From assembly GCA_036676985.1 (NCBI GenBank), contig JAKFBU010000019.1, positions 21,798 to 85,797 of the forward strand: a stretch of DNA of 64,000 nucleotides. The letters are read 5' to 3'. Below the pieces are notes generated by a model. It was not told the origin of the DNA, ran no database searches, and saw only the letters and a program-made list of their open reading frames with translations. Source of the stretch: Candidatus Sericytochromatia bacterium. GTDB lineage: Bacteria > Cyanobacteriota > Sericytochromatia > S15B-MN24 > UBA4093. Positions 1 to 3,395 of the stretch are shown here, piece after piece. Each line of letters starts with the position of its first letter. Positions within the stretch are counted from its first letter, which is position 1. Both the position numbers and the translations under genes were made by a program.

Positions 1-843
1 GTCCAGCAGGTCCGCCGGGCTGTCCTCGGCCATGGCCTCGGTGGCCCCGACGCTCACCGTGATGCAGACGGTCTCGTCGGGGGCGGTGAAGGGGTGCTTG
101 GCGAGCTCCGCGCGCACCCGCTCGGCCTGCAGCACCGCCTCGTCGAGCCGGCGGCCGGGAAGGATGTACAGGAACTCCTCGCCGCCGTAGCGACCGATGA
201 CGTCCTGGCGCCGCGAGGTGTGCCGCAGCACGCTCGCCATCTCCTGGAGGACGCGATCGCCCACCGCATGCCCCCAGCGGTCGTTGATGCCCTTGAAGCG
301 ATCCACGTCGAAGAGCAGCACCGAGAGGGGATGGCCGTGGGCGCGCGCCCCCATGAGGGCCTCCGTGAGGGCGGTGTCGAGAAACCGACGGTTGGGCAGG
401 CCCGTCAGGTGGTCGTGATAGGCGAGCTCCCACAGGCAATCCCGCTCGCGGCGCAGCACGGCCTCGCGCTGGAGGCGGGTGCGCAGCAGATCGAGGCGGG
501 CATGCAGCTCCGCCGGGGTCTCCGGCTGCACCCACACGTCGTCGGCCTCGGTTTGCCGGGTCCGCAGGTAGGCCTCCTCGTAGCTCCGCTCGATGAGCAC
601 GACGGGCACGGGCGGCATGCTGGCGAGGCCCTTGAGGATGCGGCACACCTCGCCGCCGTTGAGGCCGGCGAGCTCGGCATCGGCCAGGATGAGGGCGGGC
701 GGGTTGCGCGTGGCCTGATCCAGGGCGACAAGACCGTTGGTCGCTTTGACCACGCGGTAGCCCGTCCCCGAAAGCTCCGCCGCGATCCACTCGCTGGGGG
801 CCTCCGAGGCATAGATCACTGTGGATTGCGTGGCATCCGTCAT
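1..843 (-). CDS. Response-regulator receiver + GGDEF diguanylate cyclase (PleD/WspR-like), 3' end outside the window
   Basis: Hand translation from ATG 843 (SD GAGGAG): MTDATQSTVIYASE...PPALILADAELAGLNGGEVCRILK (REC) ...YHDHLTGLPNRR...LLFDVDRFKGINDRWGHAVGDRVL...RRQDVIGRYGGEEF (GGDEF with RxxD I-site). Absent from the ORF track because it has no stop in the window. Confidence 0.9.
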   Translation of the reverse strand, partial: MTDATQSTVIYASEAPSEWIAAELSGTGYRVVKATNGLVALDQATRNPPALILADAELAGLNGGEVCRILKGLASMPPVPVVLIERSYEEAYLRTRQTEADDVWVQPETPAELHARLDLLRTRLQREAVLRRERDCLWELAYHDHLTGLPNRRFLDTALTEALMGARAHGHPLSVLLFDVDRFKGINDRWGHAVGDRVLQEMASVLRHTSRRQDVIGRYGGEEFLYILPGRRLDEAVLQAERVRAELAKHPFTAPDETVCITVSVGATEAMAEDSPADLLD

Positions 844-951: not shown

Positions 952-983
952 AAAGGCCCCCTGCTCTTGACGAGCAGGGGGCC
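952..983 (-). terminator. Probable intrinsic terminator after the HARE-HTH gene
   Basis: 12-bp perfect stem GGCCCCCTGCTC/GAGCAGGGGGCC followed by a short T run on the minus strand. Confidence 0.65.
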
Positions 984-1006: not shown

Positions 1007-1789
1007 CTAGCGGGCCTTGAGCTTGGCGAGGCGCGCGAGCGACTCGGCGTCGGCGACCTTGGCGCGGGGCTTCAGCTCGACGACCGGGGCCGCCACCTCG
1101 GCGATCGCCGTGCGCTTGGCGCGGGCCTTCTTGGGCGCCGCCGGCTTGGCGACGGCCTTGGGAGCCTTCTTCGCCACCGGCTTGGTGATGGGCACGGGCT
1201 GCTTGGCGACCTTGGCAACCTTGGCGGGCTTGACCGGAGCGACCTTCTCGGCGACCGGCTTCACGACCACCTTGGCCGCGGGCTTCTTGGCGGCCTTCTT
1301 GGCGGCGGCGCGCTTGGCCTTGCGCAGGTCCTTGGGCCACACCTTGAGGCCGTAGGTGCCATCCGCCACCCACTCGAAGGGCGAGTCGGCGTTGCGCTGC
1401 ATGTCGTCGCCCACGCGGGCCCGCAGCGTGTAGGCCGGGGTCTTGCCCTCGGGACGGATGAGGCCGGCGCGGATGGCGCGGCGAGTGATCTCCTGGTAGT
1501 GCAGGGGCTTGCCGGCCAGCGTCAGGACCTTGAGCGCGGCTTCGCGCATGCTCATCGGGTGCTCGAGGATCTTCGAGGCCTTGATCTGCCAGGTGTGCGG
1601 CGCCGTCTGCTCGAAGCTCGAGTTCGGGTTCTGCGAGGCGCGCTTCAGCACCACGCCGATCGAGCGCTCGGGCTGCTTGGATCTCGGGGCGATCAGGCCC
1701 TTTCGGAGCGCACGGGCCACGATCTCGGCCTCCGTAAGCGGCTTGCGGGCTTCAGCCAGAATCAGGTGGGCGGCTTCGAGATAGGTCAT
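1007..1789 (-). CDS. Tandem HARE-HTH (HB1/ASXL/restriction-endonuclease winged helix) protein with a histone-H1-like Lys/Ala/Pro-rich tail
   Basis: Two repeats, MTYLEAAHLILAEARKPLTEAEIVARALRKGLI..SKQPERSI and MSMREAALKVLTLAGKPLHYQEITRRAIRAGLI..GKTPAYTLRARV..PFEWVADGTYGL, then about 115 aa of AAKKAAKKPAAK/PAKVAK-type low complexity. Start taken at ATG 1789, downstream of GAGGG. Confidence 0.8.
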   Translation of the reverse strand: MTYLEAAHLILAEARKPLTEAEIVARALRKGLIAPRSKQPERSIGVVLKRASQNPNSSFEQTAPHTWQIKASKILEHPMSMREAALKVLTLAGKPLHYQEITRRAIRAGLIRPEGKTPAYTLRARVGDDMQRNADSPFEWVADGTYGLKVWPKDLRKAKRAAAKKAAKKPAAKVVVKPVAEKVAPVKPAKVAKVAKQPVPITKPVAKKAPKAVAKPAAPKKARAKRTAIAEVAAPVVELKPRAKVADAESLARLAKLKAR

Positions 1790-1811
1790 TTCATGTCCCT
1801 CTTGTCGGGTC

Positions 1812-2073
1812 GATCTTAAGGGCGATCGATCGTTCAAACGCTTCCTATTCCTATTCTACCCCCAGATCGATCGCCTGTAAGCCCCTTTTGGCAAAGATTT
1901 TCGGCCGATCGGCGCAAACGCAGCGATCATGATCACTTTCGGCCCTCAAAAATTTTCAAATGATCGCCATGCCTGGGTTTGCGCCCCTTCAGTCGATCCG
2001 AACCCTGATCTGCCCTGGATCCGAGCCCCCTCACTCGATCATGGGGCGATCGCCCCGGATCCGCCCTCCGATC
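1812..2073. promoter_or_regulatory. Intergenic GATC array (16 sites) overlapping the predicted promoter of the HARE-HTH gene
   Basis: GATC at 1812, 1824, 1828, 1865, 1869, 1907, 1925, 1931, 1962, 1995, 2007, 2018, 2037, 2048, 2058, 2070. Minus-strand CTTACA(1881-1876)-17bp-TAGAAT(1858-1853). Confidence 0.75.
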
Positions 2074-2117
2074 CCCGTCCAAAATGGCCGGAACCCGCCT
2101 CCCACTTGGGAGTTCGG

Positions 2118-2145
2118 TTGACAAGCAACCCAACAGGGTTACAAT
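2118..2145 (+). promoter_or_regulatory. sigma70-type promoter of the aminotransferase gene
   Basis: TTGACA-16bp-TACAAT. Confidence 0.65.
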
Positions 2146-2210
2146 AACTGGAGGACAGATTGGGCAAGTCGGCGCACGTCGTCTCCACTAGCCCGCGAAA
2201 GGAGATGCCC

Positions 2211-3395
2211 GTGGCGTACTCGCTCGCCTCCCGTACTTCCCGACTACACGGCTCGGCGATCCGCGAGCTGCTCAAGATCACCCAGCAGCCCGAGGTCATC
2301 TCGCTGGCGGGCGGCTTCCCCGCTCCCGAGCTGTTCCCCATCGACGCCCTCCAGAAGGCGAGCGAGACGGTGTTCCGCACGCACGGGCCGTCGGCCCTGC
2401 AGTACGGCCCGACCGAGGGCGTGGGCGCCCTGCGCGCCCGGATCGCGGCGACCCAGCCGTTCCGCGTGCTGCCGGAGCAGGTGCTCGTCACCACAGGCTC
2501 CCAGCAGGGCCTGTTCCTGATCTCCCAGATCATGCTCGACCCAGGCGACTACGTGGTCGTCGAGTCGCCCACCTACCTGGGGGCCCTCCAGACCTTCGAC
2601 GCCCATCAGGCCGAGTACCTGATCGTGGAGTCGGATATTAAGGGCGTCATCCCCGAGTCCCTCGAGGAGGTCCTCGCCAACGCCCCCAAGAAGCCCAAGT
2701 TCATCTACCTGATCCCCAACCACCAGAACCCCTCGGGCCGCACCCTGGACGCGGTGCGCCGGTCGCAGGTGGTCGAGATCGCCGAGCGGCACGACGTGCT
2801 CATCGTCGAGGACGATCCGTACGGCCCGCTGACCTTCATGGGCCACCTGCCGCCGCCCCTGCGCGCGTTCAGCGACACCCACGTGGTCTACCTGGGCTCC
2901 TTCTCCAAGGTCTTCGCGCCCAGCCTGCGCGTCGGCTACGCGATCCCGCCCTCCCGGCTCTTCAAGTACATGGTGCAGCTCAAGCAGACCACCGACCTCC
3001 AGACGGGCAACCTCTGCCAGCTCCTGGCGCTCGAGACCTTCGCGGAGCTCGACTTCGACGCCCACCTGGAGCGCCTGCGCGCGACCTACGGCCACCGCTG
3101 CGAGTCCATGATGGCCGCGCTCGCGGCCCACTTCCCCGCGGGCACCACCTGGACCAACCCGACGGGCGGCATGTTCGTCTGGGTGCAGCTCGACAGCGAC
3201 GTGGACACCCAGCAGCTGCTGGATCGCGCGGTCGAGCACAAGGTGGCCTTCGTGCCGGGCGCTCCCTTCTGCATCGACGGCAAGGGTCAGAACGCGCTGC
3301 GCCTCAACTTCTCGAACGTGGCTCCCGCCATCATCGAGGAGGGCGTCCAGCGCCTCGCAGGCCTGGTCAAGGCGGCCGTCGCCGCCACCGTCTAG
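2211..3395 (+). CDS. PLP-dependent aminotransferase class I/II (LysN/Aro8-like)
   Basis: SAIRELLK, ISLAGGFP, LQYGPTEG, TGSQQGL, HQNPSG, EDDPYG, GSFSKVFAPSLRVG. GTG start 6 nt after AAGGAG. Confidence 0.9.
   Translation: MAYSLASRTSRLHGSAIRELLKITQQPEVISLAGGFPAPELFPIDALQKASETVFRTHGPSALQYGPTEGVGALRARIAATQPFRVLPEQVLVTTGSQQGLFLISQIMLDPGDYVVVESPTYLGALQTFDAHQAEYLIVESDIKGVIPESLEEVLANAPKKPKFIYLIPNHQNPSGRTLDAVRRSQVVEIAERHDVLIVEDDPYGPLTFMGHLPPPLRAFSDTHVVYLGSFSKVFAPSLRVGYAIPPSRLFKYMVQLKQTTDLQTGNLCQLLALETFAELDFDAHLERLRATYGHRCESMMAALAAHFPAGTTWTNPTGGMFVWVQLDSDVDTQQLLDRAVEHKVAFVPGAPFCIDGKGQNALRLNFSNVAPAIIEEGVQRLAGLVKAAVAATV

What the first reader, a model, noticed from the sequence alone, without database searches (positions are those of the whole stretch)
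1007..2075. Candidate methyl-GATC-reading, autoregulated nucleoid protein: tandem HARE-HTH plus H1-like tail under a GATC-packed promoter
Seen: the gene encodes two winged-helix HARE-HTH domains (the second with the GKTP..T motif) and about 115 aa of Lys/Ala/Pro tail. It has no nuclease or methylase domain, its own terminator, and no restriction genes nearby. Its upstream region has 16 GATC sites in about 260 bp. One GATCGATC (1865-1872) lies in the spacer of the predicted promoter (CTTACA-17-TAGAAT) and another (1824-1831) lies just after the predicted start site. Established: the DpnI winged helix and related wH domains fused to type IV restriction nucleases bind G(m6A)TC; HARE-HTH has been proposed as a modified-base reader; H1-like tails compact DNA non-specifically; SeqA binds clustered GATC sites. 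Inference: this may be a non-nuclease epigenetic reader that combines GATC recognition with DNA compaction and represses its own promoter, functionally analogous to SeqA but unrelated in fold.
Basis: partly seen in the sequence, partly recalled or inferred. Interest (0 to 1): 0.92.

Follow-up and report, generated by a model that had tools for sequence, protein, structure and literature searches.

The report
Nuclease-free HARE-HTH protein behind GATC-packed promoter
An uncultured relative of cyanobacteria carries a small DNA-binding protein built from two restriction-enzyme-type reader domains and a histone-H1-like tail, and its promoter sits in the densest cluster of GATC methylation sites in the genome; this makes it a testable, unproven candidate for a reader of adenine methylation.

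Summary
Window 1007-1789 (-) encodes a 260-aa protein with two HARE-HTH winged helices, a 109-aa Ala/Lys/Val/Pro tail and a conserved C-terminal helix. Its upstream 262 bp hold 16 GATC, the densest cluster in the 4.68-Mb genome (next best 10).

- **Host:** a Candidatus Sericytochromatia MAG. The protein occurs only in one family of that class.
- **Nearest relatives outside the orthologues:** proteins with 2-6 tandem HARE-HTH domains fused to an Mrr-type nuclease, so this looks like a nuclease-free derivative.
- **GATC methylase:** a Dam-family enzyme (best solved relative M.DpnII) is present. SeqA, MutH and C5 methylases were not found.
- **New, just outside the window:** a conserved 754-aa N6-adenine methylase lies convergent to the gene in 6 of 6 resolvable genomes of the lineages with the basic tail.
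- **Cluster follows the gene:** it stays with the gene across three different upstream neighbours, but it is strong only in this genus and absent in one genus.
- **Against the interpretation:** the dam promoter also carries GATC clusters, including in a lineage without any HARE-HTH protein.

GATC-dependent control of this promoter is likely. That the protein itself reads methyl-GATC is plausible, about 0.3, and untested.

The parts
1007..1789 (-). CDS of the 260-aa tandem HARE-HTH protein (stop codon 1007-1009)
   Evidence: The start is fixed by orthologues that all begin MTYLEAA.
1580..1789 (-). HARE-HTH domain 1 (aa 1-70), the divergent copy
   Evidence: PF05066, 47.8 bits. pLDDT about 90, helices 3-14, 20-30 and 40-53, then a beta hairpin at 59-69.
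1337..1555 (-). HARE-HTH domain 2 (aa 79-151), the canonical copy with AGKPLHY and EGKTPAYT
   Evidence: PF05066, 63.8 bits, profile positions 1-71 of 71. pLDDT about 77-91 by 10-residue block.
1085..1336 (-). Disordered Ala/Lys/Val/Pro-rich basic tail (aa 152-235), variable in length and sequence among orthologues
   Evidence: Composition. pLDDT below 50 for aa 168-240 and 242-244. Alignment.
1010..1084 (-). Conserved C-terminal motif (aa 236-260: ..PVVELKPRAKVADAESLARLAKLKAR) with a predicted helix at 248-259. It is absent in genus g2.
   Evidence: Alignment A1; structure.
955..983 (-). 12-bp GC-rich hairpin after the stop codon, followed by only UUU. A possible weak terminator or attenuator before the co-directional RR-GGDEF gene.
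   Evidence: dG -30 kcal/mol, z -3.25. The terminator scan found none.
1853..1881 (-). Predicted sigma-70-type promoter CTTACA-17-TAGAAT. The -10 element GGGTAGAATAG is identical in 5 of 5 aligned lineages.
1812..2073 (.). GATC cluster of 16 sites. A proximal part (1812-1965, 9 sites) is shared with genus g4 and the L096 lineage. A distal array (1995-2073, 7 sites, five of six spacings 10-12 bp) is seen in g1 only, with 3 of its sites also in L096.
1815..1881 (.). Inverted repeat whose 17-nt arms (1815-1831 and 1865-1881, 88% complementary) each hold a GATCGATC and bracket the -10 element and the expected start site
2118..2145 (+). Divergent near-consensus promoter TTGACA-16-TACAAT of the neighbouring class I/II aminotransferase gene (2205-3395). 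This is context, not part of the element.

Best explanation
**What the gene encodes.** It encodes a DNA-binding protein restricted to one lineage. The protein has two HARE-HTH winged helices, a long disordered histone-H1-like basic tail and a short conserved C-terminal helix. It most likely arose from the DNA-recognition module of tandem-HARE-HTH/Mrr-type (modification-dependent) restriction enzymes by losing the nuclease. It sits beside a conserved orphan-like N6-adenine methylase.

**How it is probably regulated.** It is transcribed from a sigma-70-type promoter embedded in the genome's densest GATC cluster. These sites are almost certainly methylated by the family's conserved Dam/DmtA-type enzyme. 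The most likely mechanism has two parts. Transcription of the gene depends on the occupancy or methylation state of these GATC sites. The leading candidate for the occupant is the protein itself: its wH domains would bind GATC-containing sites, the tail would add non-specific affinity, and the result would be autorepression.

**Shown here**
- the domain architecture
- the uniqueness of the cluster and its partial conservation
- the presence of Dam
- the methylase neighbour

**Inferred, with my odds**
- DNA binding: about 0.85
- GATC- or methylation-dependent promoter control: about 0.55
- the protein as the GATC or methyl-GATC reader: about 0.3
For: **Architecture**
- Two PF05066 domains and no other family.
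- Confident wH folds plus a disordered tail.
- Tail composition A31 K26 V15 P13 R7 of 109 aa, pI 11.3.
- The core is under strong constraint, with 79 invariant columns in 27 sequences.

**Origin**
- In a search of 1.84 billion representatives, only 3 co-linear clusters form the orthologue group.
- The next hits are proteins with 2-7 HARE-HTH stretches. All four tested that carry a second domain have Mrr_cat; they hold 2-6 HARE-HTH copies.

**Cluster**
- 16 GATC in 262 bp, top of the genome.
- It overlaps the promoter spacer and the 5' UTR, inside a 17-nt inverted repeat.
- At least one GATC is kept at about 7 positions across g1, g4 and L096.
- Against L001, GATC columns are 66-69% identical and other upstream columns 47-56%.
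- The upstream neighbour differs in each lineage: an aminotransferase in g1, a hemA-like reading frame (my own reading of the sequence, not scored by a tool) in g4, and another gene in L096.
- g3 has a non-alignable upstream region that still holds 7-8 GATC in 3 of 4 loci.

**Methylase**
- TIGR00571 at 311.5 bits; 2dpm M.DpnII-1 at 266 bits.
- Present in 9 of 10 family genomes.
- The cyanobacterial Dam-like enzyme methylates GATC and is essential in Synechocystis (PMC6105098, abstract and passages).

**Neighbour**
- A 754-aa protein with N6_Mtase, Eco57I and TaqI_C domains lies convergent to the gene at 0.1-2.2 kb in 6 of 6 resolvable g1, g3 and g4 genomes.

**GATC clusters used elsewhere as apparent regulatory elements**
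- dam upstream regions hold 5-9 sites per 200 bp in 9 of 9 family genomes.
- 4 of the 38 densest loci lie around dnaA and oriC.

**No other known reader**
- SeqA and MutH were not found.
Against: - No binding, methylation or expression data exist.
- The five g2 loci examined have nearly identical putative recognition helices but only 1-3 GATC upstream, as expected by chance. One g3 genome has 3.
- Outside g1 the enrichment is only 2-3 fold (P 0.005-0.06 per locus). The loci are related, so they are not independent.
- G000 against G001 gives no excess conservation of GATC columns (88% against 84%).
- dam-promoter GATC clusters occur in genus g17 (6-9 sites in 6 of 6) without any HARE-HTH domain.
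- Dam is far more widespread than the protein.
- The methylase neighbour is also older than the protein: it is in f4, 8 of 8, where a cysteine-protease-like gene (my own reading of the translation; no family search was run on it) occupies the HARE position in the 2 f4 loci examined. The adjacency may therefore be inherited synteny from one insertion.
- HARE-HTH of the RNA polymerase delta subunit is the best structural match. That it binds polymerase is recalled, not from a call.
- The ASXL1 HARE-HTH did not bind Dam-type G6mATC in pull-downs (PMC6591016 passages).
- Helbrecht et al. write that HARE-HTH may rather sense cytosine modifications (PMC11037411 passage).
Confidence: 0.45

Rival explanations
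1. The GATC cluster is a Dam-methylation-sensitive promoter element read by RNA polymerase, by Dam itself or by another factor. The HARE-HTH protein is merely the regulated product. It binds DNA non-specifically or recognises something else, for instance the mark written by the neighbouring N6-adenine methylase.
For: - GATC clusters sit upstream of dam in 9 of 9 family genomes, and also in 6 of 6 g17 genomes that lack HARE-HTH.
- g2 keeps the protein without the cluster.
- The conserved convergent neighbour is an Eco57I/TaqI_C-type methylase of unknown specificity, not Dam.
- The ASXL1 HARE-HTH ignored G6mATC.
Against: The single most extreme GATC cluster of the genome sits at this gene and follows it across three different neighbourhoods. 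That is easiest to explain by feedback through its own product. No other candidate reader was found; SeqA and MutH are absent.
Confidence: 0.3
2. The protein is the surviving specificity or reader subunit of a decayed restriction-modification or defence module together with the neighbouring methylase. It might target or modulate that methylase. It has no chromatin or autoregulatory role, and the GATC cluster is unrelated to it.
For: - Its nearest relatives are HARE-HTH plus Mrr_cat nucleases.
- It lies next to an N6_Mtase/Eco57I/TaqI_C protein whose best PADLOC and NCBIfam matches are type II, PglX or MAD2-like methylases.
- Iyer et al. describe HARE-HTH as linked to N6A R-M systems.
Against: - The methylase scores far below every defence-family cut-off.
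- No PglZ, BrxC or nuclease partner was seen in the neighbourhood, which holds CYTH, thrS, lepA and RR-GGDEF genes.
- Both genes are vertically conserved in the family.
- The protein core is under strong purifying selection.
- In g2 the two genes are unlinked.
Confidence: 0.1
3. The protein is an RNA-polymerase-associated factor like the Gram-positive delta subunit (RpoE). The HARE-HTH domains would dock on polymerase, and the basic tail, in place of delta's acidic tail, would contact DNA.
For: The best single-domain structural matches are delta's N-terminal domain (2krc, prob 0.99; 8x6g_E; 9a6y). The layout is the same: HARE-HTH followed by a long disordered charged tail.
Against: - All Foldseek E-values are above 0.01.
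- The domain is duplicated and the tail has the opposite charge.
- By sequence, the closest relatives are nuclease fusions rather than delta.
- The protein is confined to one family, whereas a polymerase subunit would be expected more widely.
Confidence: 0.07
4. The extreme GATC density is a neutral by-product. It could come from local expansion or gene conversion of GATC- or HIP1-like palindromes in an AT-richer intergenic region, and it would have no function.
For: - The genome is rich in GATC-containing palindromes: GCGATCGC occurs 2737 times, 15 times expectation.
- The distal array is genus-specific.
- Conservation between G000 and G001 is no better at GATC than elsewhere.
Against: - Only 1 of the 16 sites is a full HIP1 octamer.
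- No tandem repeat unit was detected.
- About 7 site positions persist across lineages whose intergenic sequence has otherwise fallen to about 50% identity.
- The sites overlap core promoter elements.
- No other noncoding-like segment reaches even half this density.
Confidence: 0.07

Closest known systems
Tandem HARE-HTH + Mrr_cat restriction endonucleases
   Same: These are the closest sequence relatives outside the orthologues. They have 2-6 head-to-tail HARE-HTH domains with the same GKPLHY and GKTP..T signatures.
   Different: They end in a PF04471 Mrr_cat nuclease. The window's protein has no nuclease. It ends instead in a 109-aa basic disordered tail plus a short helix, or in a Cys-rich motif in genus g2.
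RNA polymerase delta subunit RpoE of Firmicutes (PDB 2krc, 8x6g chain E)
   Same: It has a HARE-HTH fold followed by a long disordered charged tail. It is the best single-domain Foldseek match, prob 0.99.
   Different: It has one domain, not two. Its tail is acidic, not basic. It belongs to a different phylum, and the structural match has E above 0.01.
SeqA of E. coli
   Same: The resemblance is functional only. SeqA binds clustered GATC sites on one face of the helix, and GATC clusters occur at oriC and dnaA. This genome shows GATC clusters at this promoter, at dam, in the 5' part of the dnaA frame and at oriC.
   Different: There is no sequence or fold relation, and PF03925 was not found in the genome. 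No oligomerisation domain was shown. Hemimethyl preference is untested.
DpnI / HhiV4I winged-helix 6mA readers (Helbrecht et al. 2024, PMC11037411)
   Same: These are winged-helix domains of restriction-enzyme origin that read G6mATC. Stand-alone nuclease-free copies next to Dam-like methylases are reported in the preprint version (passage).
   Different: They belong to a different wH subfamily. HARE-HTH has an extra helix in the HTH (passage). DpnI is not among the 50 Foldseek rows shown.
Histone H1 C-terminal domain and bacterial H1-like tails
   Same: The composition is Lys/Ala/Pro-rich and disordered, with pI above 11.
   Different: There is no linker-histone globular domain; Pfam finds only HARE-HTH. 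The tail is unusually rich in Val. The bacterial examples (Hc1, AlgP, the HupB tail) are recalled, not from a call.
ASXL1 HARE-HTH (Kweon et al. 2019, PMC6591016)
   Same: Same Pfam family. It is reported to bind 6mA-containing duplex DNA selectively (passages).
   Different: It is a eukaryotic single domain. In that study it did not bind 6mA in the Dam GATC context.

Membership tests
HARE-HTH (PF05066) | Match to the Pfam model above its gathering score | tested here: met
   Whole protein 106.4 bits, cut-off 25.9. The two domains score 63.8 and 47.8 bits separately.
HARE-HTH (PF05066) | Winged-helix fold like the solved family member (RpoE N-terminal domain) | tested here: met
   AlphaFold2 pLDDT about 90 for both domains. 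Foldseek gives 2krc at prob 0.99, but with E 0.036.
Mrr-type / type IV restriction endonuclease | A PD-(D/E)xK Mrr_cat (or other) nuclease domain | tested here: not met
   No nuclease family in Pfam, NCBIfam or PADLOC. Relatives P0036, P0039, P0119 and P0146 do have PF04471.
SeqA | SeqA C-terminal DNA-binding domain (PF03925) | tested here: not met
   The protein has no such match, and none was found in the whole genome.
SeqA-like function | Preference for hemimethylated clustered GATC, plus oligomerisation | not testable with these tools
   This needs EMSA or footprinting. A self-association job on aa 205-260 gave no verdict, which counts neither way.
DpnI-type wH 6mA reader | Structural likeness to the DpnI or HhiV4I winged helix | tested here: inconclusive
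   It is not among the 50 rows shown of 513 Foldseek matches for the full-length model. No single-domain search was run.
Linker histone H1/H5 | Globular linker-histone wH domain (PF00538) with a Lys-rich tail | tested here: not met
   Pfam finds only HARE-HTH. Only the tail composition resembles H1.
RNA polymerase delta subunit (RpoE) | Single HARE-HTH plus an acidic C-terminal tail | tested here: not met
   There are two domains, and the tail has K+R 33 against D+E 6.
Dam family GATC methylase (the genome's enzyme at C39:179171-180001) | Match to TIGR00571 above cut-off and closest to enzymes of known GATC specificity | tested here: met
   311.5 bits, cut-off 114.85. 2dpm M.DpnII-1 at 266 bits and E. 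coli Dam at 149 bits. Actual GATC methylation in this organism was not tested.

The most novel reading that the evidence does not exclude
A restriction-enzyme reader module has been domesticated into a chromosomal reader of adenine methylation. The tandem HARE-HTH pair binds (hemi)methylated GATC clusters, and the H1-like tail and C-terminal helix compact or bridge DNA. The protein would then act as a SeqA-like factor at oriC, dnaA, dam and its own promoter, in a branch of the cyanobacterial phylum where the Dam-type methylase is conserved but no reader is known. The genome's densest GATC array would serve as its autoregulatory sensor.
Probability: 0.2. Interest if true: 0.85.

Novelty: new variant of a known kind. 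Interest (0 to 1): 0.6.

Why it matters
Dam-type GATC methylation is conserved, and reported essential, in cyanobacteria (PMC6105098). Yet the classical readers SeqA and MutH are missing there, and they were not found in this genome. What reads the mark is therefore open.

HARE-HTH has been predicted for more than a decade to read modified DNA, with little direct evidence in bacteria. In this case the domain has lost its nuclease and gained a chromatin-type tail. It sits beside an adenine methylase, and its own promoter carries an extreme array of methylation sites.

This makes a compact and cheap test system: one protein, one 300-bp fragment, and dam+ and dam- E. coli. If binding is methyl-GATC-specific, it would be the first non-nuclease HARE-HTH epigenetic reader and an analogue of SeqA with an unrelated fold. 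If not, the locus is still a clean example of a Dam-target promoter and of a restriction module turned to another use.

Its reach is limited, because the protein is confined to one uncultured family.

Tried and rejected
**Replication origin, rejected.**
- No DnaA box within 2 mismatches lies in 1790-2160.
- There is no skew turn at this place on contig C19.
- The real oriC is the dnaA-dnaN spacer C7:40374-41269, with 17 boxes at 1 mismatch or fewer.

**Known RNA element.** No Rfam match up to E 1 in 900-2300.

**Tandem-repeat origin of the array.** Tandem Repeats Finder found only a TTCCTA 2.5-mer at 1842-1856.

**A motif longer than GATC.** CGATC/GATCG flanks are 17 of 32 in the cluster against 0.39 genome-wide, which is not clearly different. 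Only 1 full HIP1 octamer is present.

**C5 methylation of CGATCG as the mark read.** No PF00145 gene was found.

**Sequence match to solved structures.** A profile of the family finds nothing below E 0.27.

**Self-association of the C-terminal 56 aa.** Complex prediction gave no verdict, score 0.00. This is evidence neither way.

**Public reads.**
- Only Logan contigs were available, so no start sites, strand or expression levels could be read.
- One soil RNA library held contigs of a relative over 1554-1799.
- The low-complexity tail region attracted unrelated contigs.
- Three differences in one contig over 1782-1911 fell outside GATC, too few to interpret.

**Other dense GATC loci (C73:159419, C56:122076).** They lie next to an alcohol dehydrogenase/histidine kinase pair and to unnamed small ORFs. 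No common theme emerged.

**Predecessor of the gene in family f4.** In the 2 f4 loci translated, the equivalent slot between the methylase and thrS holds a gene whose product reads like a cysteine protease (my own reading; no family search was run), not a HARE-HTH protein.

**Not available.**
- Aravind and Iyer 2012 (PMC3272235) is not held, so its content is cited only through other papers' passages.
- Supplementary files were not consulted.
- Literature searches for 'HARE-HTH' with 'nucleoid-associated' and for 'Sericytochromatia' with 'HIP1' each returned 0 papers. The single-term search 'HARE-HTH' returned 69 papers, of which I saw the listing of 30.
Full report
**The gene and its protein.**
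The gene is on the minus strand, window 1007-1789. ATG is at 1789, with a Shine-Dalgarno-like AGAGGGA 8-14 nt upstream. The ORF listing offers a longer TTG-1837 frame, but every orthologue begins MTYLEAA, so the 260-aa form is taken.

- Pfam finds only HARE-HTH (PF05066, E 1e-30, two stretches). Scored separately, the domains reach 63.8 bits (aa 79-151) and 47.8 bits (aa 1-68), against a cut-off of 25.9.
- NCBIfam and PADLOC find nothing.
- AlphaFold2, run with a 27-sequence alignment, gives two confident winged helices (pLDDT about 90). It also gives a disordered stretch at 168-244 and a terminal helix at 248-259.
- The 109-aa tail is A31 K26 V15 P13 R7, with K+R 33 against D+E 6 and pI 11.3.
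- The alignment shows an extremely conserved core (79 invariant columns). The tail varies in length and sequence but keeps its composition.

**The GATC cluster.**
There are 16 GATC between 1812 and 2073.

- The whole assembly is 4,676,872 bp in 79 contigs, 67.3% G+C, with 33,755 GATC (7.2 per kb). The densest 260-bp window is this one, with 16 sites. The next best is 10, at five loci.
- Among 1217 noncoding-like segments of 80-1000 bp, its density is 5.4 per 100 bp. The runner-up has 2.2.
- GATC is the most enriched 4-mer in 1790-2090: 16 against 2.17 expected, P 1.5e-9. No longer word describes the sites clearly better.
It also finds a divergent near-consensus promoter (TTGACA-16-TACAAT, 2118..2145) for the neighbouring aminotransferase.
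- One GATCGATC lies in the spacer and one lies about +15 to +22. The two belong to a 17-nt inverted repeat (1815-1831 / 1865-1881, 88% complementary) that brackets the -10 element.
- A 12-bp hairpin (dG -30 kcal/mol) follows the stop codon but has only three U after it. The terminator scan found none.

**What the cluster is not.**
- It is not an origin. No DnaA box lies in 1790-2160, and there is no skew turn here. The real oriC is the dnaA-dnaN spacer on contig C7, with 17 DnaA boxes.
- It is not a known RNA.
- It is not a tandem repeat.
- It is not a pile of HIP1 octamers; only one of the 16 sites is GCGATCGC.

**Organism and distribution.**
- Record titles of related contigs name Candidatus Sericytochromatia, the non-photosynthetic sister lineage of Cyanobacteria. 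Near-identical DNA occurs in soil, rhizosphere and groundwater metagenomes.
- The protein was found in 10 of 41 genomes searched. These are all 10 of family f1, counting the window's own genome, and 0 of 31 from other families of the order and class.
- A search with the Pfam model gave the same picture: f1 10 of 10, and elsewhere one sub-threshold hit in 37.
- In 1.84 billion representatives, only three 50%-identity clusters are co-linear orthologues. The next hits are proteins with 2-7 HARE-HTH stretches.
- Of five such proteins examined, four end in an Mrr_cat restriction nuclease and carry 2-6 HARE-HTH copies. One is a tandem pair with a short basic end.
- More distant single-domain relatives, in Myxococcota and CPR bacteria, also carry what look like nuclease-like C-termini. 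None of these has GATC-rich upstream DNA, with 0-3 sites per 300 bp.
- The protein therefore looks like a nuclease-free offshoot of modification-dependent restriction enzymes.
- Genus g2 has a Cys-rich CxCC..CGNC segment in place of most of the basic tail. It matches no Pfam family.

**Is the upstream enrichment conserved?**
GATC counts in the 300 bp before the start codon:

| Lineage | Counts |
|---|---|
| g1 | 16, 14 |
| metagenome lineage L096 | 9 |
| g4 | 9, 8 |
| g3 | 3, 8, 7, 7 |
| g2 | 1, 2, 3, 2, 2 |

- Against each locus's own background, only g1 is overwhelming (P 1.7e-8 and 2.5e-6). The others range from P 0.005 to 0.06. g2 and one g3 locus are at chance.
- In the alignment of g1, L096 and g4, about seven site positions keep a GATC. 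GATC columns are 66-69% identical to L001, against 47-56% for the other upstream columns. G000 against G001 shows no difference (88% against 84%).
- The upstream neighbour differs between these lineages. It is an aminotransferase in g1, a hemA-like reading frame (my own reading of the sequence, not scored by a tool) in g4, and another divergent gene in L096. The cluster therefore belongs to the HARE-HTH gene.
- g3 has an unalignable upstream region with its own GATC group and a TGTGCACA palindrome. g2 has a different conserved promoter without enrichment.
- The putative recognition helices are nearly identical in g1 and g2. If the protein reads GATC, g2 has lost the feedback rather than changed its specificity.

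**Methylases.**
- **The Dam-family enzyme.** The genome encodes a 276-aa Dam-family protein at C39:179171-180001 (TIGR00571, 311.5 bits, cut-off 114.85). Its closest solved relatives are M.DpnII-1 (266 bits) and E. coli Dam (149 bits), both GATC enzymes.
  - Neither neighbouring gene looks like a restriction enzyme. One has no family match and the other reads like an ABC-F ATPase, which is my own reading.
  - It is present in 9 of 10 f1 genomes and is over the cut-off in 42 of 47 genomes of the class. Co-occurrence with the HARE-HTH protein therefore says little.
  - SeqA, MutH and C5 methylases were not found.
  - Published work shows that the cyanobacterial Dam-like enzyme methylates GATC and could not be deleted in Synechocystis (PMC6105098, abstract and passages).
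- **The neighbouring methylase.** The main new fact lies just outside the window. C19:18365-20626 (+) encodes a 754-aa protein with N6_Mtase, Eco57I and TaqI_C domains. It is convergent with the HARE-HTH gene at 2.2 kb.
  - Its orthologue is about 0.1 kb from the HARE-HTH gene in g3 (3 of 3 genomes).
  - It is 1.1 kb away in g4 (2 of 2), with the same RR-GGDEF gene in between.
  - It is on a different contig in g2 (3 of 3). The second g1 genome is too fragmented to tell.
  - The methylase is older than the protein: f1 10 of 10, f4 8 of 8, f2 one partial match, f3 and f5-f7 0 of 28.
  - In two f4 genomes the slot holds an unrelated gene that reads like a cysteine protease (my own reading).
  - The adjacency fits the literature's link between HARE-HTH and N6-adenine systems (PMC4738411 passages). 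It may also be inherited synteny from one insertion.
  - The specificity of this enzyme is unknown.

**GATC clusters elsewhere.**
- The 200 bp before dam hold 5-9 GATC in 9 of 9 f1 genomes.
- Outside f1 the counts are: f3 6, 2, 3, 0, 3, 0, 1; f2 2; f7 0, 0, 0; other f6 genera 1, 0, 0, 2, 1.
- Genus g17 of f6 has 8, 9, 8, 7, 8, 6. g17 has no HARE-HTH domain (0 of 6).
- In G000, 38 loci have 6 or more GATC within 118 bp. Four of them lie in C7:28990-40780 around dnaA and oriC.
- The 900 bp after dnaA hold 10-15 GATC in five f1 genomes, against 3-7 in nine f3 and f4 genomes. This contrast rests on a single clade, and it weakens when scaled to the dnaA coding density.
- Taken together, clustered GATC sites look like a regulatory device used repeatedly in this class. 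The example at dam does not need the HARE-HTH protein.

**Structure comparison.**
Foldseek of the full-length model against the PDB gave no match below E 0.01. The single-domain matches with high probability are the RNA polymerase delta subunit N-terminal domain (2krc, 0.99), Rok (5zuz, 0.97), ZBP1 Z-alpha and forkhead domains. DpnI is not among the 50 rows shown. The family profile finds no solved relative by sequence.

**Reading.**
- The architecture and the DNA-binding role are well founded.
- GATC- or methylation-dependent control of this promoter is likely. This rests on how extreme the cluster is, its overlap with core promoter elements, the persistence of sites across lineages, and the parallel at dam.
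It fits the domain's restriction-enzyme ancestry and the methylase neighbour.
- The g2 and g17 observations, the modest enrichment outside g1 and the published negative result for the ASXL1 HARE-HTH on G6mATC keep that model at about 0.3.
- Compaction by the tail, and any SeqA-like role at oriC, are inference only.

**Novelty.**
- No paper in the held library combines HARE-HTH with 'nucleoid-associated'.
- The 30 listed of 69 papers mentioning HARE-HTH concern ASXL proteins, defence systems or reviews.
- A nuclease-free tandem HARE-HTH with an H1-like tail and a GATC-packed promoter is a new variant of a known kind.

Noticed in passing
G000:C19:18365-20626 (+), 1.2 kb left of the window's first base: A 754-aa N6-adenine DNA methylase (N6_Mtase, Eco57I and TaqI_C domains) lies convergent to the HARE-HTH gene. 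It is conserved next to that gene in g1, g3 and g4, unlinked in g2, and also present in family f4, which lacks the HARE-HTH protein. Its specificity is unknown.
   Followed up: yes
whole genome G000: The cyanobacterial HIP1 octamer GCGATCGC occurs 2737 times, 15 times the mononucleotide expectation, in this Sericytochromatia genome. No C5 DNA methylase (PF00145) was found. No held paper contains both 'Sericytochromatia' and 'HIP1'. Related loci hold about 0.5 per kb in f1, 0.3 in f3 and 0.1 in f4, from small samples.
   Followed up: partly
G000:C39:179040-179170 and dam loci L018-L026, L135, L137, L138, L140, L141, L146: The dam gene's own upstream 200 bp carry 5-9 GATC in 9 of 9 family-f1 genomes and 6-9 in 6 of 6 genomes of genus g17 (family f6). 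Most other lineages have few. This suggests methylation feedback on dam.
   Followed up: partly
G000:C7:38904-42487: oriC is the dnaA-dnaN spacer C7:40374-41269, with 17 DnaA boxes at 1 mismatch or fewer, 4 of them perfect. It holds a group of 6 GATC in 114 bp. Another group of 6 lies in the 5' part of the dnaA frame. Four of the genome's 38 densest GATC loci fall within 12 kb here. The post-dnaA 900 bp hold 10-15 GATC in f1 against 3-7 in f3 and f4.
   Followed up: partly
G000:C28:22253-23785 (-) (L030:196-1728): A second HARE-HTH protein of 510 aa has one N-terminal HARE-HTH domain (31.9 bits). The rest is long and unassigned and includes a GGIGSGKS P-loop-like motif, which I read by eye. 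No other Pfam family matched.
   Followed up: partly
L008-L010, L098, L099 (genus g2 orthologues): The orthologues of g2 replace most of the basic tail with a Cys-rich segment (CACCGF..HK..CGNCQ) that matches no Pfam family. They also lack the C-terminal motif, the GATC cluster and the methylase linkage.
   Followed up: partly
L096:2405-2413: In the 73%-identical metagenome lineage, a perfect DnaA-box nonamer TTATCCACA sits where g1 and g4 have the GATC at about -121.
   Followed up: no
L005-L007, L097 upstream regions (genus g3): A conserved palindrome GTGTGCACACATGTGTGCACAC, or a close variant, lies about 180 bp before the start codon in 4 of 4 g3 loci. It may be an operator for another regulator.
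   Followed up: no
window 1-843 (-): A response-regulator/GGDEF gene follows the HARE-HTH gene co-directionally in g1 and g4, 164 bp downstream here and after the weak hairpin. It is absent from this position in g3. Co-transcription is possible.
   Followed up: partly
G000:C73:159419-159531: This is the second-densest noncoding-like GATC group, with 8 sites in 113 bp. It lies in a divergent spacer between an alcohol-dehydrogenase-like gene and a histidine kinase gene.
   Followed up: partly
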